Assembly: GCA_963677815.1 (NCBI GenBank)
Contig: OY782499.1
Coordinates: forward strand, 613,252-677,251
DNA: 64,000 nt
Source of the DNA: Candidatus Cloacimonadales bacterium
GTDB lineage: Bacteria; Cloacimonadota; Cloacimonadia; Cloacimonadales; JAFGVF01
Reading direction: 5' to 3'
Shown: piece by piece, positions 211 to 63,797 of the stretch
Numbering within the stretch: the first letter of the stretch is position 1
Layout: every line of letters begins with the position of its first letter
The notes under the pieces: generated by a model
What the model was told of the DNA's origin: nothing
The model's input: the letters and a program-made list of their open reading frames with translations, nothing else
Database searches by the model: none
Made by a program: the position numbers and the translations under genes

Positions 211-247
211 TAACACCCCCTATTTTCCCCCTCACTAAGGGGGATTC
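211..247 (-). repeat. Family F hairpin repeat, solo copy (minus orientation)
   Basis: The sequence taacaccccctattttccccctcactaagggggattc closely matches the right inverted repeat of DUF559 copy 2 (63761-63797). It contains the stem ccccc/ggggg. Confidence 0.85.
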
Positions 248-253
248 TTTAAA

Positions 254-414
254 CCCAGATAGTGTAGTAGAGCTTTAATGAAGAGTGCAGATTATTCTAG
301 CAAAATAGCTTACATAATTTTGACGCATATAATTAATATATTCGGAGAAATTATGAAAGTTACTTTTGCAGAATAATATAGTGCTATTCACAAAGGTCTA
401 CTGCATTATTTGGG
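254..414. mobile_element. Family B foldback MITE-like element (161 bp), copy B1
   Basis: The ends cccagatagtgtagtagagc ... ggtctactgcattatttggg are imperfect terminal inverted repeats. It is near-identical to 24106-24266. The flanks are TTAAA/TTAAG. Confidence 0.8.
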
Positions 415-2133: not shown

Positions 2134-2220
2134 TACTCTCCCCGGTCTACTCGACCACCCCTCTAACTGGGAACTCGGGCATCCTGCCCGAACTTAGTAT
2201 TAAAACACTGTAAGGGGATT
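2134..2220 (+). repeat. Family A hairpin repeat, variant copy with a different apical module
   Basis: It has the conserved ends tactctccccggtctactcgaccacccctct ... aaggggatt. The usual caagcgctccaaggagctg apex is replaced by aactgggaactcgggcatcctgcccgaacttagtattaaaacactgt, which contains its own hairpin. Confidence 0.8.
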
Positions 2221-2230
2221 GATTGATATC

Positions 2231-2690
2231 GGATTGCGGTATTCTAGCCCTTGGTTACGCAGGTGTCATATTTTTTTGAGTATAGAGTGGAAGTATCCTT
2301 ACTTCCACCTGAGACCAGAGATGGTCTCAGTCCATAGGTTTGCGGTATTCTAGCCCTTGGTTACACAGGTGTCATATTTTTTTGAGTATAGAGTGGAAGT
2401 AGCCTTACTTCCACCTGAGACCAGAGATGGTCTCAGTCCATAGGTTTGCGGTATTCTAGCCCTTGGTTACGCAGGTGTCACATTTTTAGAGTATGGAGTG
2501 GAAGTATCCTTACTTCCACCTGAGACCAGAGATGGTCTCAGTCCATAGGTTTGCGGGATTCTAGCACGCGGTTACGCAGGTGTCATATTTTTAGAGTATG
2601 GAGTGGAAGTATCCTTACTTCCACTTGAGACCAGAGATGGTCTCAGTCCATAGGTTTGCGGGATTCTAGCACGCGGTTACGCAGGTGTCA
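2231..2690 (+). repeat. Tandem array of about 4.4 copies of a 105-106 bp structured unit (H motif plus a two-hairpin J module)
   Basis: Unit starts (ggWttgcgg) are at 2231, 2337, 2443, 2548 and 2653. Each unit has ...attctagcccttggttacgcaggtgtca... followed by tatRgagtggaagtatccttacttccac ctgagaccagagatggtctcag tccatagg, which contains two perfect 9-bp stems. Confidence 0.95.
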
Positions 2691-2949: not shown

Positions 2950-3510
2950 ATGGCTTCAACTTCTGATATCCGTAATGGAATGATTATAGAATGGAAAAAT
3001 GGAATTTACGAATTCGTTGAATTCCTACATGTTAAACCTGGTAAAGGTGCAGCATTTGTAAGATCTAAGCTTAGAAATGTTAGAACTGGTCAAGTAGTAG
3101 AAAACACCTTCAGAACCAGTGAAACATTCACAGAAATTAGAATTGAAAAAAGTAAAAAAGAATATTTATACAGAGATGGTGAATTCTACGTTCTCATGGA
3201 TTTAGATAACTATGAGATGATGAATGTACATGCTGATGTTATGGAGAAATATGCAAAATTCTTAAAAGAGAATATGCAAATCACTATCAAAACAACACCA
3301 GAGAATGAAATCATTGACTTAGAACTTCCTGTATACGTTATCCAAGAAATCGCAGAGTGCGAACCTAACATAAAAGGTAATACTGCATCAGGTAGTGGTA
3401 AAGTAGCTACAACAGAAACTGGTTTAAGAATCATGGTTCCTTTCTTTGTTGAACAAGGTGAGAAAATCAAGATTGATACAAGAACCGGCGAATATATTGA
3501 AAGAGCTTAA
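2950..3510 (+). CDS. efp: Translation elongation factor P
   Basis: 186 aa. The start (MASTSDIRNGMIIEW...) and the VKPGKGAAFVRSKLRNV loop are classic EF-P features. A purine-rich SD (aaaagagga) lies upstream. Confidence 0.95.
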   Translation: MASTSDIRNGMIIEWKNGIYEFVEFLHVKPGKGAAFVRSKLRNVRTGQVVENTFRTSETFTEIRIEKSKKEYLYRDGEFYVLMDLDNYEMMNVHADVMEKYAKFLKENMQITIKTTPENEIIDLELPVYVIQEIAECEPNIKGNTASGSGKVATTETGLRIMVPFFVEQGEKIKIDTRTGEYIERA

Positions 3511-23633: not shown

Positions 23634-23693
23634 AATCCCCTTTCAGCTCCTTGGAGCGCTTGAGAGGGGTGGTCGAATAGACCGGGGAGAGTA
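23634..23693 (-). repeat. Family A hairpin repeat, solo copy (minus orientation)
   Basis: The sequence aatcccctttcagctccttggagcgcttgagaggggtggtcgaatagaccggggagagta is the reverse complement of the A consensus. Confidence 0.9.
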
Positions 23694-40948: not shown

Positions 40949-41177
40949 CCCAGATGGTGCAGTAGAGCTTTAGTAATACTTCGCTAAAGCTACGTATCAC
41001 AGGCGAAGAGTGCATATTCTTTTAGCAAAATCCCCTTCTTTGAGGGGGATACAGGGGATGATTCCTTTGATACGCATATAATATATATATTCAGATGAAT
41101 TATCTAAGTTACTTTTGCAATGAGTCTTCGCTAAAGCTACGCCCTCACAAGAATAATATAGTGCTATTTTCAATAAA
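40949..41177. mobile_element. Family B-related element (left part), carrying an internal family F hairpin
   Basis: The left terminus cccagatggtgcagtagagctttagtaatacttcgctaaagctacg matches B3. The interior matches B1/B2 (gaagagtgcatattcttttagcaaaa ... acgcatataatatatatattc ... aagttacttttgca). The canonical right terminus is missing here; a right-end-like sequence (ctattgcattatt) occurs at about 41683-41695. Confidence 0.6.
41028..41066 (+). repeat. Family F hairpin copy inserted inside the B-related element
   Basis: The sequence aaatccccttctttgagggggatacaggggatgattcc interrupts the segment that is contiguous in B1/B2 (tagcaaaa|tagcttac...). Confidence 0.75.
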
Positions 41178-41213: not shown

Positions 41214-41337
41214 ATACTCTCCCCGGTCTTCACGACCACCCCTCTCAGGCGCTCCAAGGAGCTGAAAGGGGATTGTTTACTCTCCCCGGTCTACACGACC
41301 ACCCTTCTCAAGCGCTCCAAGGAGCTGAAAGAGGATT
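41214..41337 (+). repeat. Family A hairpin repeat, 2 tandem copies
   Basis: The sequence is atactctccccggtcttcacgaccacccctctcaggcgctccaaggagctgaaaggggatt followed by a second, slightly diverged copy. Confidence 0.9.
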
Positions 41338-51210: not shown

Positions 51211-53748
51211 ATGAAAAAATTTATTATAACATTAATCATATCAATCTGGGCACTAGCAATATGGTCTCTTGAAAGATGGGAGGTTTATACCAATACTTCT
51301 CATATATACCAAACTTATTTTAAAGATTCTGAATTAATATCTGTCTCTTGGGGTGGGATTGAAGAATATGATTTTACTAGCGTGGGAGAAGAAGTTAAAT
51401 TAGAATTAACTAATAAATATACAACCATAAATGGCTTATCCTCAAACGAGGTTAGAAGTTTATACTTAAAGGACAACAAAATTTGGGCAGGTACTTACAA
51501 TGATGGACTTACTATCATTGAAGATAATCAAGTGTATAACATAAACTCTGATAATGGTTTAATTTCCAATAAAGTCATAACTATTAAAACAATAGATCAA
51601 GTGGTTTGTGTAGTTACAGAGGGGGGATTTTCTACATTTTATAATCTTGATGAAGTCTCTTTTCCTATTCTTTCAAGAAAATATTCCCCTGCTTCAACTT
51701 CTGGTGCTCTAATTTCTGAAACAATTAGTGACTTAGTTATCTATCAAGACTATGTTTTTCTAGCAACTGATTCTGGACTTATTTACTTTCCTCTTACAGA
51801 CTTAGATAACTTTGACCAGTGGGAATATCTTAATACTTCTAATTCACTTTTGGCTGATAACCAAGTAAACAAATTAGCTGTTAAAGATGAGAAACTTGCT
51901 ATAGCAAGTGATAATGCAATCCAGGTTGTTAGTAACTTATTTGATAATCCTAACTGGGAAACTTATTCTTTTGAAGCTGATGATTTATCAGATTCTGATG
52001 AAGATATATTTATCCAAACTATCCAATTCAGAGATAATGGTCAACTCTTGTTTTCCACAGGTATCTGGGATGAATCTATTACTACTATGTCAGCTTTATC
52101 ATCTTCAATCCTGCAAGTAATTAATTTGGATGGTAGTATCGAAAGTATTCTATCCACAAACACCTCAGTGAAAGATATTTCTTCTGGGAATATAGAACTA
52201 ATCAAGCTAAATCCTATAGGGATTAAGTATATAGAAAATTCTTCTAATGACATTATTGTTTCTACCTGGGGAGCTGGTTTATTAATTTTCCATAATAATG
52301 AATGGTATCAATATGAACCTAATGGTATTGGCTTTAATGCTATTAACCACCTAACAGTAGATAATAACTACACACTTTGGGCATCATGTGGCTATTATGG
52401 TACTGCTGCTCTGAGAAAAGGTGCTAGAGGTGTTTCTTCCTTTGATGGTGATAACTGGCAAACCTTGAATATGAACAACTCTCCTATTCAGAGTGATAAT
52501 ATCAATGCCATCACTATAGGTAGTGATAATAAAAAGTGGTTTGGCTCATGGTATAGCGGAGATGATCACCCTCAAGGTTGGAAAGGTGGTGTTACTTCTT
52601 ATGATGAAGAAAATCAAGAATGGAAATGGTATCATACTTCTGGAGTATTCTCCTATAACACTCAAAGCCAATCTTTTTCAGATTTAGAAAGTTCTATTGC
52701 TAGCTTACCTTCACAAACAGTATCTTTTCTTAATACTGATAGACAGGGAAATATTATGATGTCACTTCAAGGTTATGGCCTAGCCTTCTATTCTCCCCAA
52801 GGAGACCAAAGATTAGCCATTTCTCCCCTTTATGGCTCACAAAGCAACTTTACTAGAAGATCCTTTCACAACCAGTACGGCTATTTCTTTAGTAAATCAG
52901 CTGCTGCTGCTTCAGGTGAATCTGCAGGTCTTCTCCATTGGAATTCCCAAGAAATACCTAGCGAAAATGATATAAGCTCATGGGAAAATATTCCTATATC
53001 TGATATTAGAAACTCTGCTATAAATGACATTATTGAAGTTCCTACTCCTTATGGTAATCAACTTTGGGTTGCTGGTAATAATGGACTCTTTATGTATGAT
53101 GGTAATTACTGGTATCGCTATGGGATTAATATTAAAAGAGAAAGATGGTCTGCTGGCTGGCAAATTGAAACCCGTTATATAATAGGTGAAACTAAGCTCT
53201 TTGCTGCAAAAGATACCTATCCTACAGCCTTAGCTATTGATGATTATGGATGCCTTTGGATAGGTTCTGAAGAAGCCGGTTTGACTAAGTATGACACTAA
53301 TACAGAAGAATATTTTGTCTATGATAAAGATTCATATCCCCTAATTAGCAATCAAATCAAAGCCTTAGCTTATGAAGCTAGATCTGGAAAACTCTATATT
53401 GGAGCAGGTGAAGGACTTTGCTCTGTCACAGTAGGCTCTTCTGCAAACCCTCAGAAGGATTTTAATAAAGTAGTGGCTGTTCCTAATCCATTTTATCCTG
53501 AACGTGGAGATATTGTAAGAATTTACAATGACCCTGATGATTTTATGCCTAAATCAGCAAAAGTTTGCAAGATTTTTGATATATCTGGTCAGCTTGTTTA
53601 TGACCTTCCTCTGAATAAATATCAGTCCTTTAGCTGGGATGGAAGAAATAAAAATGGTAAAAAATGCTCTTCAGGGATTTACTTCTATACTATTAGTTCT
53701 TCAGATGGGCAAACAAAAAAGGGTAAAATTGCCCTGATAAGAGATTAA
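51211..53748 (+). CDS. Secreted beta-propeller repeat protein (two-component-regulator-propeller-like repeats) with a FlgD-Ig/T9SS-like C-terminal domain
   Basis: 845 aa. Has a signal/anchor and repeated W-x-G-T/S-x-x-G-L motifs (IWAGTYNDGLTII, LWVAGNNGLFMYDG, LWIGSEEAGLTKYD, LYIGAGEGLCSV). The C-terminus is VPNPFYPERGD...GIYFYTI. Confidence 0.75.
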   Translation: MKKFIITLIISIWALAIWSLERWEVYTNTSHIYQTYFKDSELISVSWGGIEEYDFTSVGEEVKLELTNKYTTINGLSSNEVRSLYLKDNKIWAGTYNDGLTIIEDNQVYNINSDNGLISNKVITIKTIDQVVCVVTEGGFSTFYNLDEVSFPILSRKYSPASTSGALISETISDLVIYQDYVFLATDSGLIYFPLTDLDNFDQWEYLNTSNSLLADNQVNKLAVKDEKLAIASDNAIQVVSNLFDNPNWETYSFEADDLSDSDEDIFIQTIQFRDNGQLLFSTGIWDESITTMSALSSSILQVINLDGSIESILSTNTSVKDISSGNIELIKLNPIGIKYIENSSNDIIVSTWGAGLLIFHNNEWYQYEPNGIGFNAINHLTVDNNYTLWASCGYYGTAALRKGARGVSSFDGDNWQTLNMNNSPIQSDNINAITIGSDNKKWFGSWYSGDDHPQGWKGGVTSYDEENQEWKWYHTSGVFSYNTQSQSFSDLESSIASLPSQTVSFLNTDRQGNIMMSLQGYGLAFYSPQGDQRLAISPLYGSQSNFTRRSFHNQYGYFFSKSAAAASGESAGLLHWNSQEIPSENDISSWENIPISDIRNSAINDIIEVPTPYGNQLWVAGNNGLFMYDGNYWYRYGINIKRERWSAGWQIETRYIIGETKLFAAKDTYPTALAIDDYGCLWIGSEEAGLTKYDTNTEEYFVYDKDSYPLISNQIKALAYEARSGKLYIGAGEGLCSVTVGSSANPQKDFNKVVAVPNPFYPERGDIVRIYNDPDDFMPKSAKVCKIFDISGQLVYDLPLNKYQSFSWDGRNKNGKKCSSGIYFYTISSSDGQTKKGKIALIRD

Positions 53749-53765
53749 TCTCCTGATAGGTGAAT

Positions 53766-54015
53766 CTATCCCCTTTCAGTTCGTAAGAGCGTTTGAGAGG
53801 GGTGGTCGTGTAGACCGGGGAGAGTAAACAATCCCCTTTCAGCTCGTAAGAGCGTCTGAGAGGGGTGGTCGAGTAGACCGGGGAGAGTAAACAATCCCCT
53901 TTCAGCTCGTAAGAGCGTCTGAGAGGGGTGGTCGAGTAGACCGGGGAGAGTAAACAATCCCCTTTCAGCTCGTAAGAGCGCTTGAGAGGGGTGGTCGTGT
54001 AGACCGGGGAGAGTA
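53766..54015 (-). repeat. Family A' hairpin repeat array: 4 tandem copies, 63-bp period, minus orientation, abutting the DUF559 copy 1 start
   Basis: The motif atcccctttcag starts at 53768, 53831, 53894 and 53957. The unit is atcccctttcagctcgtaagagcgtctgagaggggtggtcgagtagaccggggagagtaaaca. The array ends 2 nt before ATG 54018. Confidence 0.95.
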
Positions 54016-54017
54016 AT

Positions 54018-54398
54018 ATGAATACAATAAATTACAACAAAAAATTAAAGAAATATTCTAATAAATTAAAGAAAAATCTAACTCTACCAGAAGTACTATT
54101 TTGGAATAAAGTAAAAAATAAACAACTTGGATATAGATTCTACAAGCAGAAACCAATTGGAAATTATATAGTGGATTTTTATTGTGCTAAATTTAAATTA
54201 ATTATTGAAATTGATGGAAGGGATCATGATTTCAAAGAAGAATATGATGAAAAGAGAGAAATTTATCTAGAAAAATTAGGGATGAAGATTATTAGGTTCT
54301 CAAATTATCAAATATACAAACAGTTAGATGGTTGCATTGAATATATTCAGGGTTTTTTAAAAGGAAATCAAGAGTGTAATGATAAAAGACCAATATAA
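54018..54398 (+). CDS. DUF559 (Vsr-like / PD-(D/E)xK endonuclease fold) protein, copy 1
   Basis: 126 aa. Has LTLPEVLFWNKVK...YIVDFYCAKFKLIIEIDGRDH...MKIIRFSNYQI, which matches my recollection of the DUF559 core (aDFyc...liiEiDG..H ... RF.N.ei). The ORF abuts repeat arrays at both ends. Confidence 0.85.
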   Translation: MNTINYNKKLKKYSNKLKKNLTLPEVLFWNKVKNKQLGYRFYKQKPIGNYIVDFYCAKFKLIIEIDGRDHDFKEEYDEKREIYLEKLGMKIIRFSNYQIYKQLDGCIEYIQGFLKGNQECNDKRPI

Positions 54399-54644
54399 TA
54401 CTCTCCCCGGTCTACACGACCACCCCTCTCAGGCGCTCCAAGGAGCTGAAAGGGGATTAATACTCTCCCCGGTCTACACGACCACCCCTCTCAAGCGCTC
54501 CAAGGAGCTGAAAGGGGATTAATACTCTCCCCGGTCTACTCGACCACCCCTCTCAAGCGCTCCAAGGAGCTGAAAGGGGATTAATACTCTCCCCGGTCTA
54601 CTCGACCACCCCTCTCAGGCGCTCCAAGGAGCTGAAAGGGGATT
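54399..54644 (+). repeat. Family A hairpin repeat array: 4 tandem copies, 62-bp period, plus orientation, starting at the nucleotide after the DUF559 copy 1 stop
   Basis: The motif tactctcc starts at 54399, 54461, 54523 and 54585. The unit is tactctccccggtctacacgaccacccctctcaggcgctccaaggagctgaaaggggattaa. Confidence 0.95.
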
Positions 54645-54651
54645 AATACTT

Positions 54652-54717
54652 ATAGCTTGATTGTTACTCTCTCAATAGATTCTCATTGATTTATTGAGAT
54701 AGTAACAATCAAGCTAT
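54652..54717. repeat. Family C palindrome, copy C3
   Basis: The arms are atagcttgattgttactctctcaata and tattgagatagtaacaatcaagctat, forming a ~26-bp stem with one mismatch. Confidence 0.85.
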
Positions 54718-54800
54718 CATGAGATAACATTGGTCTACAAAGATGTCGCTCCTGATCGAGCTTTTAAGCTTTTATTTCATTTTGATTCTACAAAAATGCC

Positions 54801-54975
54801 CCCCTCCAGGGCTAAGATAATTTTTGCTTTCATATCTACAGGGTCTACCTAACCCTGCCTCTTAAATAAACATCCCTTCGAGATTAATGTGAGATAAATT
54901 ACTTAAATAGACTCCATATTTGTTAATTAATCTTTTACGACAATATTTATCATGTCACTCACTCTACTATGGAAA
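54801..54975 (+). repeat. Family G element, copy G2
   Basis: Collinear with G1, about 75% identical by eye. It lies immediately 3' of the racemase gene. Confidence 0.8.
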
Positions 54976-54993
54976 GAAACAAAAAAAATACTT

Positions 54994-56073
54994 TTATCCG
55001 TTATTCACAACCTTTTTTTCTATATATCTAGAATTCATGAGCTTTAGAAGTCCCATATAGTCCATACTAAAGGTTAATTCGTCACCTACTTTATAATTTT
55101 TAGGATTATTTTTTAGATCCATAACAATCATATCAGAGCTAGCTCCTACGAATTCAAGACTTTTATCGTCACACCAGAGGTGCTTGTCATCTACATCAAG
55201 TAAGCCTAAACCTATAATAGCTCGATAAGAAGTATCAGAAGCCTGTGCTGGGTCAAAATCAAATGATTCCCCTTCAATATTAGTTCCGAAATCACCTGTA
55301 GGAACTTTTGGTTTTTCTATAAGCTCGATAATTTCCACATGCAAGGTAAAGATATCATGGGACATATCTTTGATTTTGGTGTCATTATAGACATTAGTAC
55401 CTAGATAGAGAGTCTCTCCTAGTCTGAAATGATTAATTCCTTTGGGCAGAATTCCATTTAAAAGAAGAGGGAATACAACAGAGCTTCCACCAGAAACATA
55501 AGGAATTTGACGGTCAAATTTAGCTTCTATAAGTTGTTCATAAAGACTCAGTTGGATAAGTTTATCTGGATTAGGAAGAACGCCATACAGACAAGAGAAA
55601 TTAGTTCCTATTCCAACAACTTTGATATTTTCTAATTGGAAAACCTTTTCATAGAAGTCTATAAAATCATCACGTAAGACACCTTCTCTTAGCTCTCCCA
55701 TTTCAATCATAATAATAATTTTATGTGTTTTATTTTGTTTTTTGGCAGCTTTGGCTAATGATTTAATAGTAGATATTTCTGTATTAACACTAATATCAGC
55801 ATATTTTACTATATTGGCGACATCACGTTTAGAAGGTGGTTTAATATAGATTGTTTCTATTTTATCATTTAGAGCTTTTATATTTTTGAGATTGGAGATT
55901 CTTGAGTCACATACCTGAGTCACACCTAACTTAAGTAACTCAGTTAGAAAAGTCTTATTTCCACAAAGGACTTTAGTTACAATAGACCAGTTTATATCAT
56001 TTTCAGTAAATATTTTGTCTAGATAATCGTAGTTGTTCTTCAAAGATTCTACATTCATCTCAAGATAGGCCAT
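54994..56073 (-). CDS. PLP-dependent amino-acid racemase (alanine racemase N-terminal fold, YhfX/ornithine racemase-like)
   Basis: 359 aa. The WSIVTKVLCGN segment is a candidate PLP-lysine site in a TIM-barrel plus C-terminal beta domain. Its start overlaps the stop of the upstream GNAT gene (TAATG). Confidence 0.7.
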   Translation of the reverse strand: MAYLEMNVESLKNNYDYLDKIFTENDINWSIVTKVLCGNKTFLTELLKLGVTQVCDSRISNLKNIKALNDKIETIYIKPPSKRDVANIVKYADISVNTEISTIKSLAKAAKKQNKTHKIIIMIEMGELREGVLRDDFIDFYEKVFQLENIKVVGIGTNFSCLYGVLPNPDKLIQLSLYEQLIEAKFDRQIPYVSGGSSVVFPLLLNGILPKGINHFRLGETLYLGTNVYNDTKIKDMSHDIFTLHVEIIELIEKPKVPTGDFGTNIEGESFDFDPAQASDTSYRAIIGLGLLDVDDKHLWCDDKSLEFVGASSDMIVMDLKNNPKNYKVGDELTFSMDYMGLLKLMNSRYIEKKVVNNG

Positions 56074-58243: not shown

Positions 58244-58314
58244 TTTGACCTCTTAAATAAATAATTTCTTTATTTTTTGACAAAGATATAAGATGGTAAA
58301 ATTGTCAAATTGTT

Positions 58315-58397
58315 TATGGAGTGGATGCATCTTGCATCCACAACAGGCTCTGAAAGCCTGTTAATCTGGCGGCAAGATGCCGCCAGTCCATAGTGTG
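58315..58397 (+). repeat. Cloverleaf-like three-hairpin J module (83 bp), copy 1
   Basis: The layout is tatgga g [gtggatgca tct tgcatccac] aa [caggct ctgaa agcctg] ttaat [ctggcggca aga tgccgccag] tccata gtgt. The closing stem is tatgga/tccata. It is identical to 58578-58659. Confidence 0.9.
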
Positions 58398-58410
58398 TTT
58401 ACTCTTTTTT

Positions 58411-58531
58411 ACTCTCCCCGGTCTACTCGACCACCCCTCTCAAGCGCTCCAAGGAGCTGAAAGGGGATTGTTTACTCTCCCCGGTCTACTCGACCACCCC
58501 TCTCAAGCGCTCCAAGGAGCTGAAAGGGGAT
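58411..58531 (+). repeat. Family A hairpin repeat, 2 tandem copies (62-bp period)
   Basis: The motif tactctcc starts at 58411 and 58473. It is followed by a further hairpin, gcggatgtggtcatccgc. Confidence 0.9.
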
Positions 58532-58577: not shown

Positions 58578-58659
58578 TATGGAGTGGATGCATCTTGCAT
58601 CCACAACAGGCTCTGAAAGCCTGTTAATCTGGCGGCAAGATGCCGCCAGTCCATAGTGT
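58578..58659 (+). repeat. Cloverleaf-like three-hairpin J module, copy 2
   Basis: A perfect direct repeat of 58315-58397. It ends at the stop codon of the O-methyltransferase gene. Confidence 0.9.
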
Positions 58660-59276
58660 TATTTCAAAACACTAATAGTAATTCCATCACCAACAGGTAA
58701 AATTGTTGTTTCGAGTAAGGGGTGCTTGATTACATAATGGTTATATTGATCCATAGGTTTGGCTAATCTATCCTTAAAACCCATAGGTAAGAAAAGTGTG
58801 TCATCTGCATAAATGATTCCTTTAGGGTTAAGAAGATTGATACAAGAATCAATAACCTTATTATAGAGTGGTTTATTTGAATCGATAATAATAATATCAT
58901 ATTTGTCTTTTAGGTCTTTAACTACTTCAATAGCATCACCAGCGATTACTTCAATTCTATCAGCTAGTCCTGCTTTTTCAATATTTACCACATTTTCTTT
59001 TACAAATCTTTCATCAATTTCGATTGTGGTTAGTTTACCCTTAGTTTTCTTCAGTGCTTCGCCTGCCCAAATAGCAGAATAGCCCAAACAAGTACCTATT
59101 TCTAAAACATTTTTAGCATCCTTCAAGATAATGAACCATGACAAGAGCCGGGCACCTTGTTTAGTGATATTTGGTTGAACGTTAATTCTTTCTTGATGTG
59201 CTATTTCAAGTTCTTTTAAGATTTGGTTAGGGTAGCTGATAAATGAATCAATATAGCTGTTAATTTTATCTTGCAT
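58659..59276 (-). CDS. Class I SAM-dependent O-methyltransferase (family 3, caffeoyl-CoA OMT/YrrM-like)
   Basis: 205 aa. Has a SAM motif (VLEIGTCLGYSAIW) and an IIIDSNK motif. Confidence 0.85.
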   Translation of the reverse strand: MQDKINSYIDSFISYPNQILKELEIAHQERINVQPNITKQGARLLSWFIILKDAKNVLEIGTCLGYSAIWAGEALKKTKGKLTTIEIDERFVKENVVNIEKAGLADRIEVIAGDAIEVVKDLKDKYDIIIIDSNKPLYNKVIDSCINLLNPKGIIYADDTLFLPMGFKDRLAKPMDQYNHYVIKHPLLETTILPVGDGITISVLK

Positions 59277-61196: not shown

Positions 61197-62435
61197 ATGT
61201 ATTTAATGATTAAGAGACTTATATTTTTGGCAACTTGTACACTCCTTCTATTTGCTTGTAATAACAAAGAAAATAATATTGGAATTACTCAATCTGATCT
61301 AATACCAATGGCTGGACAAATTGATTCTTTTTCTCAAGAATTTTCCTTCAGAGATAGTATTTCTGTTAATGGAGAAAACTATAAACTCTTAGTAGCAAAT
61401 ACCCAAGAAGTAGAATCTCAAGCTATTGTTTCTTTTGCTTATTTACCAGATAATGTTGAGTATATAGCTGATGCTACTTTAACTTTTTATACTGATCTAA
61501 AGCCTGAAGGTGATATGGAATTCAAAATTAAGAGAATCGAACAAGATTATTTAGAATCTCAAGCTACTTGGCAAGAAGCTAGCGAGGGAGAAACTTGGGA
61601 TGAAGATTTAATATTTGAAAGTATAACACCAGCTGTAACATTAACTGATACTGTTGCAGGAAGAATAGATTCCTTAGTATTTAATCTTCCTGTTGAAGAA
61701 ATAAAAACTTGGACAGAAACAGATCAAGCACTTTTCACACTTATGGTTTATACTGAGTCAAACAATTATATAGAGCTTTATTCATCCGAAAACTCTAAAA
61801 ATCCTATATTGAACTTCAAATATATGCTTAACAGTGAAACAGAAGAAAAGGAATATAGTAGAAATGCTTTCAAGGATACCTATATTGTTAACGACAAGCT
61901 GGGATTAGAGCAAGTATGGGCTCCTATGATTTCTTTAAGTAATATGACGCCTAAACGAGCATTTTTGAAGTTTGACCTTGATACAAATTTAATTTTAAAT
62001 CAAGAAGGGGATAATTTAACTCAATTCCAAAAAGATCATCTTACTGTTAATAGTGCTTACATCAGATTGTATGTAAAAAACTTTTCTTTCTTTGATGGTA
62101 ATAGATCTGTTTATATCACACCTTACAGAGTAATGGAAGAAGTTACTGATATAGCTATGATTGATAAAATTAATAATTTAGAATATTTAAATAATACTGG
62201 TACTAGTGTGGCAACTATTGAATCTGCTCCTGATTCTACTCAGTATGTTGATGTTAAAATAACCCCAATTTTGCAAGGCTTTATCTCTGGTGAAAAAGAT
62301 AATTTCGGTATTGTTATGACCTCTTCTTATCAATCAACTAACTTTGATGCTATTGAATTTTATGGAAAAGAGGCAGAAGATGAGAGTTTAAGACCTAAAG
62401 TACATTTCGTTTATACTTTACCTATGGAAGATTGA
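61197..62435 (+). CDS. Lipoprotein of unknown function
   Basis: 412 aa. Has a lipobox (LLLFAC). I recognise no catalytic motif. The start could be the internal MIKRL at 61206. Confidence 0.6.
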   Translation: MYLMIKRLIFLATCTLLLFACNNKENNIGITQSDLIPMAGQIDSFSQEFSFRDSISVNGENYKLLVANTQEVESQAIVSFAYLPDNVEYIADATLTFYTDLKPEGDMEFKIKRIEQDYLESQATWQEASEGETWDEDLIFESITPAVTLTDTVAGRIDSLVFNLPVEEIKTWTETDQALFTLMVYTESNNYIELYSSENSKNPILNFKYMLNSETEEKEYSRNAFKDTYIVNDKLGLEQVWAPMISLSNMTPKRAFLKFDLDTNLILNQEGDNLTQFQKDHLTVNSAYIRLYVKNFSFFDGNRSVYITPYRVMEEVTDIAMIDKINNLEYLNNTGTSVATIESAPDSTQYVDVKITPILQGFISGEKDNFGIVMTSSYQSTNFDAIEFYGKEAEDESLRPKVHFVYTLPMED

Positions 62436-62448
62436 AGACAGGAAGGAA

Positions 62449-63196
62449 GAAGATTCTTTACACTAATTAACACGAATTAGAGCGAATTTCACGAATAAGA
62501 AGAAGTCTATCCACGGATTTCACTAATTACACGAATTACTTTTTGCTAAAAAGGGATTGTTCGTTTTTGGTCGAGGTATTCCAGTCCGTGGTTACGCAGA
62601 TGCCAAGATATAGATAAATCCCCCTTTGAGAGGGGGACGACAGGGGGGGGGCCTTTGTTTCCTTAACACAGAGTTTAGAAAAGAAGATTCTTTACGCGAA
62701 TTAACTCGAATTAGAGCGAATTTCACGAATAAGAAGAAATCTATCCACGGATTTCACTAATTACACGAATTACTTTTTGCTAAAAGTGTTAGTCTATGGG
62801 GAGCAGGATTCTAGCCTGTGGTTACGCAGATGCAAAGATATAGATAAATCCCCCTTTGAGAGGGGGACGACAGGGGGGGCCTTTGTTTCCTTAACACAGA
62901 GTTTAGAAAAGAAGATTCTTTACACTAATTAACTCGAATTAGAACGAATTTCACGAATAAGAAGAAGTCTATCCACGGATTTCACTAATTACACGAATTA
63001 CTTTTTGCTAAAAAGGGATTGTTGGTTTTTGGTCGCGGGATTCCAGTTCGCTATTACGCAGGTGACATGGATATAGATAAATCCCCCTTTGGGAGGGGGA
63101 AGACAGGGGGAGTTCCTTTGTTTTCTTTAACACAGAGTTTAGAAAAGAAGATTCTTTACGCGAATTAACTCGAATTAGAACGAATTTCACGAATTT
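62449..63196 (+). repeat. Tandem array of 3.2 copies of a ~228-236 bp composite unit (CGAAT-rich segment + H motif + family F hairpin)
   Basis: The motif gaagattcttta starts at 62449, 62683, 62911 and 63147. Each full unit ends with ...ggttacgcagRtg...atagataaatccccctttgagagggggacgacaggggg...tttcc. Confidence 0.95.
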
Positions 63197-63351
63197 ACTG
63201 GTTTAAAGGTTTGTAAGATATTGGAAGATTAATAGATAAAGAAAAGTGAGTGATTATATTTATATGTTTTATAATCATCCATTAGTTAGAAAAAAAAATT
63301 ATCCCGAAGGGATAACAGCCTGTGGTTACGCAGATGTCAAGATATAGATAA

Positions 63352-63388
63352 ATCCCCCTTTGAGAGGGGGAAAATAGGGGGTGTTTCC
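63352..63388 (+). repeat. Family F hairpin, left inverted repeat flanking DUF559 copy 2
   Basis: The sequence atccccctttgagagggggaaaatagggggtgtttcc is the exact reverse complement of 63761-63797. It ends 4 nt before ATG 63393. Confidence 0.95.
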
Positions 63389-63392
63389 ATAT

Positions 63393-63758
63393 ATGTTAAC
63401 AAAAGTACCTTATAGGTTACCTTATAATAAAGATTTAAAAGAAAAAGCTAGGTTTTTAAGAATTAATCAAACTAATGCTGAAAAGAAGCTATGGTATCAA
63501 TATTTATCACCTCACAAAGAAAAATTTAATAGACAGAAAATAATAGATAATTTTATTGTTGATTTTTATTGTGCTAGGCATAAATTAGTAATTGAAATTG
63601 ATGGTGAAACACATAATAGTGATAGATCTTATAATTATGATAAAAGAAGAACTCAAGTTCTAAATTCTTATGGATTAATAGTTATAAGATTTTCGAATTA
63701 CGAAATATATAATGAATTTGATAGTGTGATAGAAAGAATTGAAGAATATTTGAAATGA
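63393..63758 (+). CDS. DUF559 (Vsr-like / PD-(D/E)xK endonuclease fold) protein, copy 2
   Basis: Has QTNAEKKLWYQYL...FIVDFYCARHKLVIEIDGETH...LIVIRFSNYEI. By eye it is about 40% identical to copy 1 over the core. I chose ATG 63393; the track uses GTG 63381, which lies inside the flanking repeat. Ends with a TGA stop at 63756-63758. Confidence 0.85.
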   Translation: MLTKVPYRLPYNKDLKEKARFLRINQTNAEKKLWYQYLSPHKEKFNRQKIIDNFIVDFYCARHKLVIEIDGETHNSDRSYNYDKRRTQVLNSYGLIVIRFSNYEIYNEFDSVIERIEEYLK

Positions 63759-63760
63759 TA

Positions 63761-63797
63761 GGAAACACCCCCTATTTTCCCCCTCTCAAAGGGGGAT
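63761..63797 (-). repeat. Family F hairpin, right inverted repeat flanking DUF559 copy 2
   Basis: The sequence ggaaacaccccctattttccccctctcaaagggggat begins 2 nt after the TGA stop (63756-63758). Confidence 0.95.

What the first reader, a model, noticed from the sequence alone, without database searches (positions are those of the whole stretch)
53766..54644. DUF559 endonuclease-fold gene embedded exactly between two inverted 4-copy arrays of a 62-63 bp hairpin repeat (REP/RAYT-like architecture with a different protein fold)
Seen directly in the sequence:
- The left array (53766-54015) has 4 head-to-tail copies with a 63-bp period in minus orientation.
- The right array (54399-54644) has 4 copies with a 62-bp period in plus orientation.
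- The 126-aa DUF559 ORF fills the gap precisely. ATG 54018 is 2 nt after the last left unit, whose end (accGGGGAGAGta) supplies the only SD-like sequence.
- The stop TAA (54396-54398) runs straight into the first right unit.
- The two arrays are reverse complements of each other except for the hairpin apex (gctc-GTAA-gagc on the left versus gctc-CAAG-gagc on the right).
- Each array is internally nearly homogeneous, which suggests array-level concerted evolution.
- The same repeat is dispersed at 2134, 23634, 41214 and 58411.

Known analogy: REP/REPIN elements flank their cognate RAYT (IS200/IS605-like tyrosine transposase) genes in inverted orientation.

Inference: a small PD-(D/E)xK-fold DUF559 protein may be the cognate nuclease or binding factor that disperses or maintains this hairpin repeat family. 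I am not aware of such an association having been described.
Basis: partly seen in the sequence, partly recalled or inferred. Interest (0 to 1): 0.85.

Follow-up and report, generated by a model that had tools for sequence, protein, structure and literature searches.

The report
Nuclease gene framed by triplex-motif repeats
A small nuclease gene (DUF559) sits exactly between two mirror-image arrays of a repeat that belongs to the enigmatic BoxC/PIT "triplex motif" class, and the same pairing recurs in many unrelated bacteria, which points to the long-missing protein partner of these repeats.

Summary
A 126-aa DUF559 ORF (54018-54398) is flanked by 4 x 63-bp and 4 x 62-bp inverted arrays, and six more copies lie elsewhere in the window.

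The unit is more than a hairpin. It has a C-rich arm, a G-rich arm and a third G-rich strand that mirrors the G-arm. That is the known BoxC/PIT/TMECO intrastrand triplex motif (TM), whose function and origin are unknown.

The association is systematic:
- A second DUF559 paralogue in the window (63393-63758) has its own inverted TM pair.
- An 86% orthologue in another Cloacimonadales genome sits among different genes, and homology ends at the TMs.
- 36 of 55 small DUF559 genes from metagenomes have a TM within 100 nt upstream (background 0.18 per kb).
- Cyanobacterial, Deinococcus and Neisseria DUF559 genes are TM-flanked.
- The sole TM in 20 kb around E. coli ycjD lies 170 nt from it.

TM type tracks the protein clade. 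Convergent TM pairs are either gene-less (3-42 nt apart) or hold a DUF559 ORF (about 350-390 nt).

My best reading is a selfish TM-DUF559-TM cassette with a homing-like nuclease. This is inferred, not shown. No paper in the searched library describes the link.

The parts
53768..54016 (+). Left array: four 63-bp family-1 triplex-motif (TM) units, at 53771-53824, 53834-53887, 53897-53950 and 53960-54013. On the + strand each unit reads Y-arm CCCCTTTCA, then loop 1 (mini-hairpin GCTC-GTAA-GAGC), R-arm TGAGAGGGG, loop 2 (mini-hairpin GGTC-N5-GACC) and third strand GGGGAGAGT. The third strand points toward the gene, and the last one doubles as the SD-like sequence.
54018..54398 (+). DUF559 ORF, 126 aa. 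Predicted Vsr-like PD-(D/E)XK nuclease with invariant D53, E64, G67 and H70 (D66 in at least 90% of sequences).
54396..54650 (-). Right array: four 62-bp family-1 TM units in the opposite orientation, at 54401-54454, 54463-54516, 54525-54578 and 54587-54640. Their third strands are on the - strand and again point toward the gene. The apex is CAAG instead of TTAC.
2136..2222 (-). Solo family-1 unit with a different hairpin module nested in loop 1.
23638..23691 (+). Solo family-1 TM (CAAG apex).
41217..41336 (-). Two tandem family-1 units (CAAG apex). The second is degenerate.
58412..58528 (-). Two tandem, identical family-1 units (CAAG apex).
63353..63382 (+). Family-2 TM upstream of the second DUF559 paralogue: CCCCCT-TTGAG-AGGGGG, then AAAAT, then AGGGGGTG. 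It is part of a perfect 37-nt inverted repeat (63350-63388 against 63761-63797).
63393..63758 (+). Second DUF559 paralogue: 121 aa from the ATG (125 aa from GTG 63381), 45% identical to the first. Pfam DUF559 E=4.8e-31.
63767..63796 (-). Family-2 TM downstream of the second paralogue, convergent with 63353-63382.
62447..63194 (+). 228-bp composite tandem repeat (3.2 copies) upstream of the second cassette. Each copy holds a family-2 TM (62619-62648, 62849-62878, 63082-63111) plus other modules.
215..244 (-). Solo family-2 TM, about 20 nt after the stop codon of an upstream membrane-protein ORF.

Best explanation
The locus is a TM-DUF559-TM cassette. A small Vsr-like PD-(D/E)XK nuclease gene is framed by convergent copies of an intrastrand triplex motif of the BoxC/PIT/TMECO class. 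Here each copy has been tandemly amplified to four units.

The cassette behaves as a discrete, selfish and evolutionarily mobile unit. The solo, tandem and gene-less doublet copies elsewhere are its non-autonomous relatives.

Proposed mechanism (inferred):
1. The gene is expressed by read-through, using the third-strand G-run as its ribosome-binding site.
2. The nuclease recognises the structured TM DNA, or the junction of a convergent TM doublet, and nicks or cuts it.
3. Repair from a gene-bearing copy, with the TMs as homology arms, copies the ORF into the doublet (homing-like). Slippage and unequal exchange at TMs generate arrays, deletions and solos.

Shown: the anatomy, the systematic association, co-variation of TM type with protein clade, relocation of the cassette, decay products, purifying selection and the fold.

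Inferred: any enzymatic action on TMs, triplex formation in vivo, and the homing route.
For: 1. Systematic flanking.
- Both paralogues in the window are flanked.
- The 86% orthologue in L001 is flanked.
- 22 of 50 metagenomic small DUF559 genes have flank inverted repeats scoring at least 26, against 0 of 90 control ORFs.
- 36 of 55 have a TM within 100 nt upstream with the third strand toward the gene. Background is 0.18 TM per kb (binomial p about 5e-60).
- The same holds in Picosynechococcus, Pseudanabaena, Deinococcus and N. gonorrhoeae.

2. The unit is a triplex motif.
- The third strand mirrors the R-arm in every sequence family examined, including TMECO, with A or T opposite A.
- The finder detects 22 TMs in the window against 0-1 in shuffles.

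3. Cassette identity.
- Window and L001 share nucleotide homology only over 53942-54471.
- Many pairs with 75-90% identical proteins share only 10-160 nt beyond the ORF.
- Cassettes sit between carA and carB, inside an RND operon, and in frame inside a type I restriction hsdR gene.

4. TM type co-segregates with the DUF559 clade: 61% identity within a type against 49% between types, p=2e-37.

5. Gaps between convergent TM pairs are bimodal: 3-42 nt (gene-less doublets) or about 350-390 nt (a DUF559 ORF).

6. Decay products exist in CAXXJV. There is a frameshifted copy in L017, a C-terminal remnant between TMs in L006, and a TM+ATG followed by an IS in L004.

7. Selection.
- dN/dS is 0.02 with saturated synonymous sites.
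- The three triplex strands are identical between the two genomes, and the loop-2 hairpin changed with compensation.

8. Fold.
- AF2 mean pLDDT is 89.5.
- The best PDB matches are 3HRL (DUF559), 3R3P (homing endonuclease I-Bth0305I catalytic domain) and Vsr.
- D53, E64 and H70 are invariant.

9. E. coli.
- TMECO no. 9 lies 167 nt from ycjD.
- In a spread sample, ycjD-positive genomes carry 16-30 motif-like hits. ycjD-negative genomes carry 2-23, median about 5.
- This is consistent with Holder et al. Table S1 and with the phylogroup distribution of ycjD.
Against: - No biochemical evidence exists for any DUF559 protein acting on TMs.
- A PD-(D/E)XK hydrolase cannot itself perform strand transfer.
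- No target-site duplication is visible.
- Repeat abundance does not follow gene integrity. OY782831 has an intact gene but only 3 copies. CAXXJV has about 40 copies but only decayed genes of this type among the loci fetched. Some ycjD-negative E. coli keep 16-23 hits.
- The E. coli correlation is confounded by phylogeny.
- Polarity is not universal. 14 of 55 genes have an upstream TM in the opposite orientation. Neisseria has direct repeats and Deinococcus has the third strand distal.
- E. coli ycjD has a single co-oriented TM 170 nt away, not a frame.
- Triplex formation was seen in vitro but not in vivo for TMECO (PMC4666352).
- I found no clean occupied-versus-empty site polymorphism.
- The metagenomic loci are not phylogenetically independent.
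Confidence: 0.55

Rival explanations
1. Passenger at a hotspot. TMs are fragile or recombinogenic DNA, or preferred insertion sites. DUF559 genes are unrelated small selfish, defence or repair genes that tend to land and survive between them. The protein has no specific action on TMs.
For: - TM loci are unusually unstable in E. coli (PMC4666352).
- An IS3-like element abuts TMs at two CAXXJV loci.
- Another repeat module is nested in the TM apex at window 2136-2222.
- TM-rich genomes exist without an intact cognate gene.
Against: - In about 400 kb of fetched loci, the occupied convergent pairs checked against the tblastn matches enclose a DUF559 ORF or its remnant. The gap distribution shows only two classes.
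- The TMs travel with the gene into unrelated contexts, and homology stops at their outer edge.
- TM sequence type co-varies with the protein clade.
- The third strand abuts the start codon (0-20 nt) across phyla.
Confidence: 0.2
2. Expression module only. The flanking motifs are cis elements of the DUF559 transcript. The G-run acts as ribosome-binding site, and the 5' and 3' hairpins act as mRNA stabilisers, insulators or terminators when the gene sits inside foreign operons. They have no role in DNA mobility.
For: - The third strand is the only SD-like sequence. It lies 2-20 nt from the ATG in most loci.
- Cassettes sit co-oriented inside operons, between carA and carB and within an RND operon.
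- The G-rich strand folds as a stable hairpin, leaving the G-run free.
Against: - This does not explain the inverted copy after the stop codon.
- It does not explain the mirror (not direct) relation of third strand to R-arm.
- It does not explain the dozens of solo, tandem or doublet copies far from any DUF559 gene.
- It does not explain in-frame cassettes inside hsdR, where no RBS is needed.
- Purine-motif triplexes do not form in RNA, according to the introduction of PMC4666352.
- There is no terminator signal above chance.
Confidence: 0.15
3. Guardian or repair role. DUF559 is a Vsr-type repair nuclease that processes mismatches or non-B structures arising at TMs and so limits their mutagenic effect. 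The Y/R hairpin of both window families carries a conserved T.G mismatch. The gene is linked to TMs because the element benefits from carrying it.
For: - Vsr is among the closest folds.
- A T.G mismatch sits in the stem of both family 1 (CCCCTTTCA/TGAGAGGGG) and family 2.
- TMs cause instability (PMC4666352).
Against: - The most common TM families next to DUF559 genes have perfect stems without a T.G mismatch.
- No cognate cytosine methyltransferase is adjacent in the window.
- It does not explain why the ORF sits exactly between convergent TMs, or why gene-less doublets exist.
Confidence: 0.1

Closest known systems
BoxC / PIT elements / TMECO intrastrand triplex motifs (Bachellier et al. 1990s; Hoyne et al. 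2000; Holder et al. 2015, PMC4666352)
   Same: - Same three-block architecture: a pyrimidine arm, a loop, a purine arm, a loop, then a purine or G/T third strand that mirrors the purine arm (class II purine motif).
- Intergenic and multi-copy.
- Occur as solos and as closely spaced inverted pairs made of two subtypes.
- Associated with local instability.
- No promoter or terminator activity.
   Different: - The sequence differs from the TMECO consensus.
- Family 1 has long loops that are themselves mini-hairpins (17 and 14-16 nt against 1-6 nt), and it forms 62-63-bp tandem arrays.
- The host is an AT-rich Cloacimonadales MAG, not a proteobacterium or cyanobacterium.
- Here the motifs frame a DUF559 gene. 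Holder et al. state they never found mobility-related genes near TMs. They list ycjD as a neighbour of TMECO no. 9 without comment.
REP/REPIN elements and their RAYT transposases
   Same: - A nuclease gene flanked by inverted copies of a dispersed structured repeat.
- Gene-less inverted doublets elsewhere.
- Repeat subtype matches the gene's clade.
- The gene decays while repeats persist.
   Different: - A RAYT is an HUH/Y1 (IS200/IS605-like) single-strand transposase. This protein is a Vsr-like PD-(D/E)XK hydrolase.
- A REP is a simple hairpin with a GTAG-type tetranucleotide, not a three-strand mirror motif.
- No mechanism for dispersal of solo copies can be borrowed from RAYTs.
EDxHD / Vsr-like homing endonuclease I-Bth0305I (PDB 3R3P)
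   Same: - The second-best structural match (Foldseek E=1.6e-4).
- A selfish nuclease gene that propagates by cutting an empty site and being copied in during repair.
- The E-x-D-G-x2-H motif is shared.
   Different: - I-Bth0305I is encoded in a phage group I intron and has an extra DNA-binding domain.
- The present gene is free-standing and only 126 aa.
- It is framed by a repeated, structured target-like sequence rather than a unique host gene site.
- Homing has not been shown.
Vsr very-short-patch repair endonuclease
   Same: The same fold family and catalytic core. Sources often annotate these proteins as 'very-short-patch-repair endonuclease'.
   Different: - There is no adjacent Dcm-type methyltransferase.
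- Pfam assigns it to DUF559 (PF04480), not Vsr (PF03852).
- It is multi-copy, relocating and repeat-framed.
Rickettsia palindromic elements (in-frame selfish insertions in genes; recalled from memory)
   Same: In nine metagenomic loci and one Pseudanabaena plasmid, the whole TM-DUF559-TM unit is read through in frame inside a large host ORF.
   Different: RPEs are short non-coding palindromes with no gene of their own. Here a whole nuclease domain is carried.

Membership tests
DUF559 (Pfam PF04480) | Match to the family HMM above the gathering score | tested here: met
   110.3 bits against a cutoff of 20.6, E=5.4e-32, covering profile positions 2-108 of 109. The second paralogue scores 107.3 bits.
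DUF559 (Pfam PF04480) | Equivalog of E. coli YcjD (NCBIfam PRK09767) | tested here: not met
   68.8 bits against a curated cutoff of 218. It is a family member, not a YcjD orthologue.
Vsr-like PD-(D/E)XK nuclease fold | Fold similarity to solved members | tested here: met
   AF2 mean pLDDT 89.5 and pTM 0.83. Foldseek matches: 3hrl E=1.1e-7, 3r3p E=1.6e-4, 1vsr E=0.019. phmmer against 3HRL gives E=1.1e-18.
Vsr-like PD-(D/E)XK nuclease fold | Conserved acidic and His catalytic residues | tested here: met
   D53, E64, G67 and H70 are invariant, and D66 is present in at least 90% of 33 sequences. dN/dS is 0.02.
Vsr-like PD-(D/E)XK nuclease fold | Nuclease activity | not testable with these tools
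   Needs purified protein.
Intrastrand triplex motif, class II purine type (BoxC/PIT/TM) | A pyrimidine arm and a purine arm forming a Watson-Crick hairpin | tested here: met
   Family 1 pairs CCCCTTTCA with TGAGAGGGG (one T.G). The ssDNA fold is -12.3 kcal/mol, z=-3.2. Family 2 pairs CCCCCT(T) with (G)AGGGGG.
Intrastrand triplex motif, class II purine type (BoxC/PIT/TM) | A third strand that mirrors the purine arm (G opposite G, A or T opposite A) | tested here: met
   Family 1: GAGAGGGG mirrored by GGGGAGAG. Family 2: GAGGGGG mirrored by GGGGGTG. The same rule holds in the other families and in TMECO. A perfect mirror occurs 84 times against 24 for a perfect direct copy, Wilcoxon p=3e-7.
Intrastrand triplex motif, class II purine type (BoxC/PIT/TM) | Short loops (1-6 nt in the ITxF definition; 0-10 nt in Hoyne et al.) | tested here: not met
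   Family 1 loops are 17 and 14-16 nt, each a mini-hairpin. Family 2 meets the criterion (5 and 4 nt).
Intrastrand triplex motif, class II purine type (BoxC/PIT/TM) | Match to the TMECO consensus CCCTCNCCC N3-6 GGGNGAGGG N3 GGGNGAGGG | tested here: not met
   The arm sequences differ. It is the same architecture, not the same sequence family.
Intrastrand triplex motif, class II purine type (BoxC/PIT/TM) | Triplex formation in vitro or in vivo | not testable with these tools
   CD and NMR evidence exists only for TMECO. In vivo footprinting there was negative.
REP/REPIN-RAYT system | Gene encodes an HUH/Y1 (IS200/IS605-like) transposase | tested here: not met
   Pfam reports only DUF559 and a sub-threshold MTES_1575 match.
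REP/REPIN-RAYT system | Gene flanked by inverted copies of a dispersed repeat, with gene-less inverted doublets elsewhere | tested here: met
   Doublets occur in related loci and in E. coli. None occurs in this window.
Homing endonuclease gene | Occupied and empty alleles of the same site; the enzyme cuts the empty site | tested here: inconclusive
   Gene-less doublets and gene-bearing pairs both exist, but not at one orthologous site. The search for an empty allele of this locus failed. Cleavage cannot be tested here.
Insertion sequence / transposon | A transposase and target-site duplication | tested here: not met
   There is no transposase domain. No direct repeat of flanking host sequence is seen at the cassette edges in the window or L001.

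The most novel reading that the evidence does not exclude
DUF559 proteins are the long-missing cognate nucleases of the BoxC/PIT/TMECO intrastrand triplex repeats. Together, TM-DUF559-TM cassettes and their gene-less solo and doublet derivatives would form a previously unrecognised and very widespread class of selfish DNA. The enzyme would be a Vsr-like PD-(D/E)XK hydrolase that recognises a non-B (hairpin or triplex) DNA structure and spreads by a homing-like route. The class is seen here in Cloacimonadota, cyanobacteria, Deinococcus, Neisseria, a Planctomycetes MAG, many metagenomic loci of unassigned lineage and, weakly, E. coli. These cassettes can even persist as in-frame insertions in host genes such as hsdR.
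Probability: 0.45. Interest if true: 0.9.

Novelty: new variant of a known kind. Interest (0 to 1): 0.85.

Why it matters
BoxC/PIT/TMECO repeats have been catalogued since the 1990s. Holder et al. counted thousands of TMECO copies in 262 proteobacterial genomes. A stable triplex forms in vitro, yet no function, origin or associated protein is known. The 2015 survey states explicitly that no mobility-related gene was ever found near them.

DUF559 is one of the commonest uncharacterised nuclease families. It includes E. coli YcjD and the solved N. gonorrhoeae protein in PDB 3HRL.

Linking the two gives each a concrete hypothesis that can be tested at the bench:
- a structure-specific nuclease with a defined DNA substrate;
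- an explanation for TM dispersal, inverted A/B pairs and local genome instability;
- a reason why metagenome assemblies break around these genes.

It would also add a second, mechanistically unrelated example of the REP/RAYT principle.

Tried and rejected
- Rfam (gathering threshold) and ARAGORN on the whole window found nothing. The repeat is not a known RNA family or tRNA-derived.
- The promoter/terminator scan of 53400-55100 found no signal above shuffles. I did not pursue a terminator explanation.
- PADLOC gave only weak partial hits (mREase_II at 6.5e-5, a homing-endonuclease model at 3e-5 for the paralogue). This is not a recognised defence system.
- A look-up of the exact protein's contig failed, although a 100% identical protein on a 2.88-Mb contig is indexed. 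The window's own genome could therefore not be censused. The single genome-contig scan found the motif only in two other Cloacimonadales MAGs.
- Empty-site search. Orthologues of the neighbouring racemase (P0124, P0125) lie next to different genes, or on contigs that end in another repeat. The result is inconclusive.
- E. coli ycjD as a typical cassette: rejected. Its flanks carry no inverted repeat (score 19) and only one co-oriented TMECO 170 nt downstream.
- The E. coli count of motif-like 'places' also includes hits to other parts of the 571-nt query, and it is confounded by phylogeny. I use it only as weak support.
- Alternative Watson-Crick pairing of the third strand with the Y-arm: rejected, because the third strand is a mirror of the R-arm, not a direct copy.
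- The first version of the mirror test is noisy (overlapping windows, both orientations). I report it alongside a curated table of families.
Full report
**1. Observation**

- Tandem Repeats Finder reports 53768-54016 (period 63, 4.0 copies, 96% matches) and 54396-54650 (period 62, 4.1 copies, 98%).
- The only substantial ORF between the arrays is 54018-54398 (+), 126 aa. It matches Pfam DUF559 at E=5.4e-32 over nearly the whole profile.
- The ATG follows the last left unit by 2 nt, and the TAA stop runs into the first right unit.
- A 31-nt core of the unit occurs 14 times in the window with up to 3 mismatches, against 0 in 100 shuffles. Besides the eight flanking copies, the sites are 2136, 23661, 41217, 41280, 58412 and 58475.
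- The left array carries the apex TTAC (read in unit orientation). The right array and all dispersed copies carry CAAG.
- There are no Rfam or tRNA matches.

**2. Where the window comes from**

- An identical protein is indexed on a 2.88-Mb contig, but that contig could not be fetched.
- A scan of 185,579 species-representative genomes for the hairpin core found it only in Candidatus Cloacimonadales MAG records from two isolates.
- CAXXJV010000001 (2.90 Mb) has about 40 copies in 23 loci.
- OY782831 (2.48 Mb) has only three copies. A separate contig record of the same isolate, CAXXQH, carries the same sites.

**3. The association repeats itself**

- In OY782831, two of the three copies flank an 86%-identical DUF559 orthologue (L001 10001-10378). 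The neighbouring genes are entirely different.
- Nucleotide homology between the window and L001 is confined to 53942-54471, that is, one repeat unit, the ORF and one repeat unit.
- CAXXJV holds a frameshifted or deleted copy between inverted units (L017). It also holds a remnant of the last ~33 codons between inverted units (L006).
- At a site syntenic with window 61768-62431, CAXXJV has a unit ending '...GGGGAGAGTAAACATG' followed by an IS3-like element instead of the ORF (L004).
- The window contains a second DUF559 paralogue (63393-63758, 45% identity, Pfam E=4.8e-31). It is flanked by its own perfect 37-nt inverted repeat of a different but related motif.

**4. What the repeat is**

Read on the G-rich strand, every unit has five parts in order:
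1. a C-rich arm;
2. a loop;
3. a complementary G-rich arm;
4. a second loop;
5. a second G-rich block.

The last block is the mirror image of the G-arm, not a direct copy. G lies opposite G, and A or T lies opposite A.

| Family or locus | G-arm (R-arm) | Third strand |
|---|---|---|
| Family 1 (window) | TGAGAGGGG | GGGGAGAGT |
| Family 2 (window) | GAGGGGG | GGGGGTG |
| Related loci | AAAGGGAGA | AGAGGGATTT |
| Related loci | AAAGAGGGG | GGGGAGATT |
| Related loci | GGAGGGG | GGGGTGG |
| Related loci | GAGAGGGG | GGGGTGTG |

- In a test that first finds hairpins and then asks which relation the following block obeys, a perfect mirror occurs 84 times and a perfect direct copy 24 times (Wilcoxon p=3e-7).
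- A finder for this architecture detects 22 motifs in the window against 0-1 in shuffles.
- This is the class II purine-type intrastrand triplex motif. It was described as BoxC, then as PIT elements, then as TM/TMECO.
- TMECO reads CCCTCNCCC-N3-6-GGGNGAGGG-N3-GGGNGAGGG. There are 23 copies in E. coli K-12, including five inverted A/B pairs, and 3,610 copies in 262 proteobacterial genomes.
- A triplex was shown in vitro by CD and NMR, but not by in vivo footprinting.
- No promoter or terminator activity is known. [quoted passage not shown]
- Family 1 here departs from that definition. Both loops are long mini-hairpins. The loop-2 hairpin changed with compensation between genomes, from GGTC-N5-GACC to GCC-TTAC-GGC.

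**5. Generality**

*Metagenomic loci.* Eighty loci encode relatives with 42-53% identity.
- Of 50 small genes with at least 150 nt on both sides, 22 have an inverted repeat between their flanks scoring at least 26. None of 90 control ORFs from the same loci does (Mann-Whitney p=6.5e-9).
- 36 of 55 have a TM within 100 nt upstream with its third strand toward the gene. Background is 0.18 TM per kb (binomial p about 5e-60).
- 19 of 53 have the convergent partner after the stop codon, and 14 of 52 have both.
- The third strand typically ends 0-20 nt before the ATG and is the only SD-like sequence.
- TM sequence type tracks protein relatedness: 61% identity within a type against 49% between types (p=2e-37).
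- Many pairs with 75-90% identical proteins share only 10-160 nt beyond the ORF, although 1.5 kb of flank was available.

*Insertion contexts.*
- One clade sits between carA and carB.
- One cassette sits between the outer-membrane and adaptor genes of an RND operon.

*Spacing of convergent pairs.*
- The distance between convergent TMs is bimodal: 3-42 nt with no gene, or about 350-390 nt with a DUF559 ORF.
- The short-gap doublets were checked by eye. They often combine two TM subtypes, like the E. coli A/B pairs.

*Named genomes*.
- Picosynechococcus PCC 7002 plasmid pAQ6: the DUF559 gene is TM-flanked.
- A Pseudanabaena plasmid: the DUF559 segment is TM-flanked.
- Deinococcus sp. NW-56: inverted TMs, with the third strand distal to the gene.
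- N. gonorrhoeae, the gene family of PDB 3HRL: about 100-bp direct repeats, each holding a TM.

*E. coli K-12.*
- The only TM in 20 kb around ycjD lies 170 nt downstream of it.
- It is TMECO no. 9 in Holder's Table S2, where ycjD is listed without comment.

**6. E. coli co-occurrence (weak evidence)**

- ycjD is present in 3,377 of 5,426 complete genomes.
- In an evenly spread sample, ycjD-positive genomes have 16-30 motif-like hits. ycjD-negative genomes have 2-23, median about 5.
- Published counts agree: 1-2 in B2 strains, 19-30 in A/B1/C strains and 6-15 in D/E/F strains.
- ycjD occupies the sapF-fabI site in phylogroups A, B1 and C (PMC12817139).
- This pattern is phylogenetically confounded. 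TM-rich genomes without ycjD exist.

**7. The protein**

- dN/dS against the L001 orthologue is 0.02, with saturated synonymous sites (pS=0.74). The three triplex-forming blocks of the flanking unit are nevertheless identical in the two genomes. Both gene and motif are therefore constrained.
- D53, E64, G67 and H70 are invariant in 33 sequences.
- The AF2 model (pLDDT 89.5) matches 3HRL best. Next come the catalytic domain of the homing endonuclease I-Bth0305I and then Vsr.
- PADLOC and NCBIfam add nothing specific.

**8. Interpretation**

- The evidence shows a discrete TM-DUF559-TM cassette that is conserved, relocates and decays. Gene-less solos, tandems and doublets appear to be its relatives.
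- Action of the nuclease on TMs is an inference. So are a homing-like copy mechanism using TMs as homology arms, and array formation by slippage.
- Points against the inference:
  - no biochemistry;
  - no target-site duplication;
  - variable polarity;
  - repeat abundance that does not follow gene integrity;
  - no orthologous occupied-versus-empty site.
- Rival readings are scored separately: a passenger at a fragile hotspot, an expression module only, and a repair 'guardian'. The first two are not fully exclusive of the main model.

**9. Novelty**

- The repeat class and the protein family are each known.
- Full-text searches for DUF559, COG2852, ycjD, TMECO/PIT/BoxC and intrastrand triplex found no paper linking them.
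- The library does not cover most subscription journals, so prior description elsewhere cannot be excluded.

Noticed in passing
L071 1948-5661 (TMs at 2906-2947 and 3324-3359); also L045, L065, L077, L081, L086, L091, L101, L102: The whole TM-DUF559-TM unit is read through in frame, with no start or stop codon, inside a type I restriction enzyme R-subunit gene. It lies between the N-terminal domain and SWI2/SNF2 motif I. The TMs are translated, for example as FYSPPLEGWQTQSAGVVE.
   Followed up: partly
L118 (Pseudanabaena galeata plasmid NZ_CP112876.1, 152507-153970): A DUF559 segment flanked by convergent TMs (465-503 +, 880-918 -) lies inside an annotated 1,621-aa ORF. This would be a second host gene with an in-frame cassette. 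In Picosynechococcus and Synechocystis plasmids the cassette neighbours DUF1156 genes.
   Followed up: partly
L120 (N. gonorrhoeae NZ_CP119142.1, 48999-50459): The gonococcal DUF559 gene (the family of PDB 3HRL, NGO0050) is flanked by about 100-bp direct repeats. Each contains a triplex motif, CCCTCTCCC-TGT-GGGAGAGAG-CTA-GAGAGAGGG.
   Followed up: partly
L035 11205-11237 (E. coli K-12 NC_000913.3, about 1351204-1351236): TMECO no. 9 of Holder et al. is the only triplex motif in 20 kb and lies 170 nt downstream of ycjD, the E. coli DUF559 gene. Across 5,426 genomes, ycjD-positive strains carry more motif-like hits than ycjD-negative ones, with exceptions.
   Followed up: partly
L004 1404-2870 and L006 1-90 (CAXXJV010000001.1): An IS3-like element (orfA/orfB, ORFs 1462-1884 and 1890-2675) abuts triplex motifs at two loci. 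In L004 it replaces the DUF559 ORF directly after 'GGGGAGAGTAAACATG'. This is reminiscent of IS elements that target REP/BIME structures (from memory).
   Followed up: partly
window 62447-63194; L004 700-1340; L017 5340-6000: Composite tandem repeats of 228 bp (window) and about 360 bp (CAXXJV). They combine TMs with other conserved modules, for example 'ttctttacacgaattaac.cgaattaga.cgaatttcacgaataagaa' and 'ctaactgggaatgcgggcatccctgcccgcggttacgcag'. The intergenic DNA of this lineage is a mosaic of several GC-rich hairpin families in an AT-rich genome.
   Followed up: no
window 2234-2690: A 105-bp tandem repeat (4.3 copies, 96% matches) with two internal hairpins (gtggaagtatccttacttccac and gagaccagagatggtctc). 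It lies immediately after the variant TM at 2136-2222.
   Followed up: no
window 58310-58400 and 58578-58660: Two direct copies of an ~85-nt element with three hairpins (ggatgcatcttgcatcc, caggctctgaaagcctg, ctggcggcaagatgccgccag). They bracket the tandem TM pair at 58412-58528.
   Followed up: no
window 247-355 and 41060-41110; L122 6150-6236; L123 5735-5766: Another dispersed repeat ('ctttaaacccagatagtgtagtaga...gacgcatataat.aatatattcggagaaatt'). Metagenome contigs of close relatives end inside it. It may be an IS or MITE end.
   Followed up: no
L078 1596-3117; also L051, L055, L061, L074, L079, L085, L100: In one metagenomic clade the DUF559 cassette occupies the carA-carB intergenic spacer. 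In L029 it sits between the outer-membrane and adaptor genes of an RND efflux operon. In both cases it is co-oriented with the operon.
   Followed up: partly
L001 10443-10487; L006 320-400: Microsatellites built from the C-rich box of the motif, (TCTCTCCG)n and (ATCTCTCA)n, extend outward from the outermost TM.
   Followed up: no
L030 / L031 (JGI Ga0216261_1000840, 13.2 kb): A 2.5-kb segment containing the DUF559 cassette and part of the RND operon is tandemly duplicated on this contig, but not on the 1.5-Mb contig L029. This is either a real duplication mediated by the cassette or an assembly artefact.
   Followed up: no
table: Most close DUF559 homologues lie on very short contigs (0.5-2 kb). 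This is consistent with short-read assemblies breaking at the flanking repeats.
   Followed up: no
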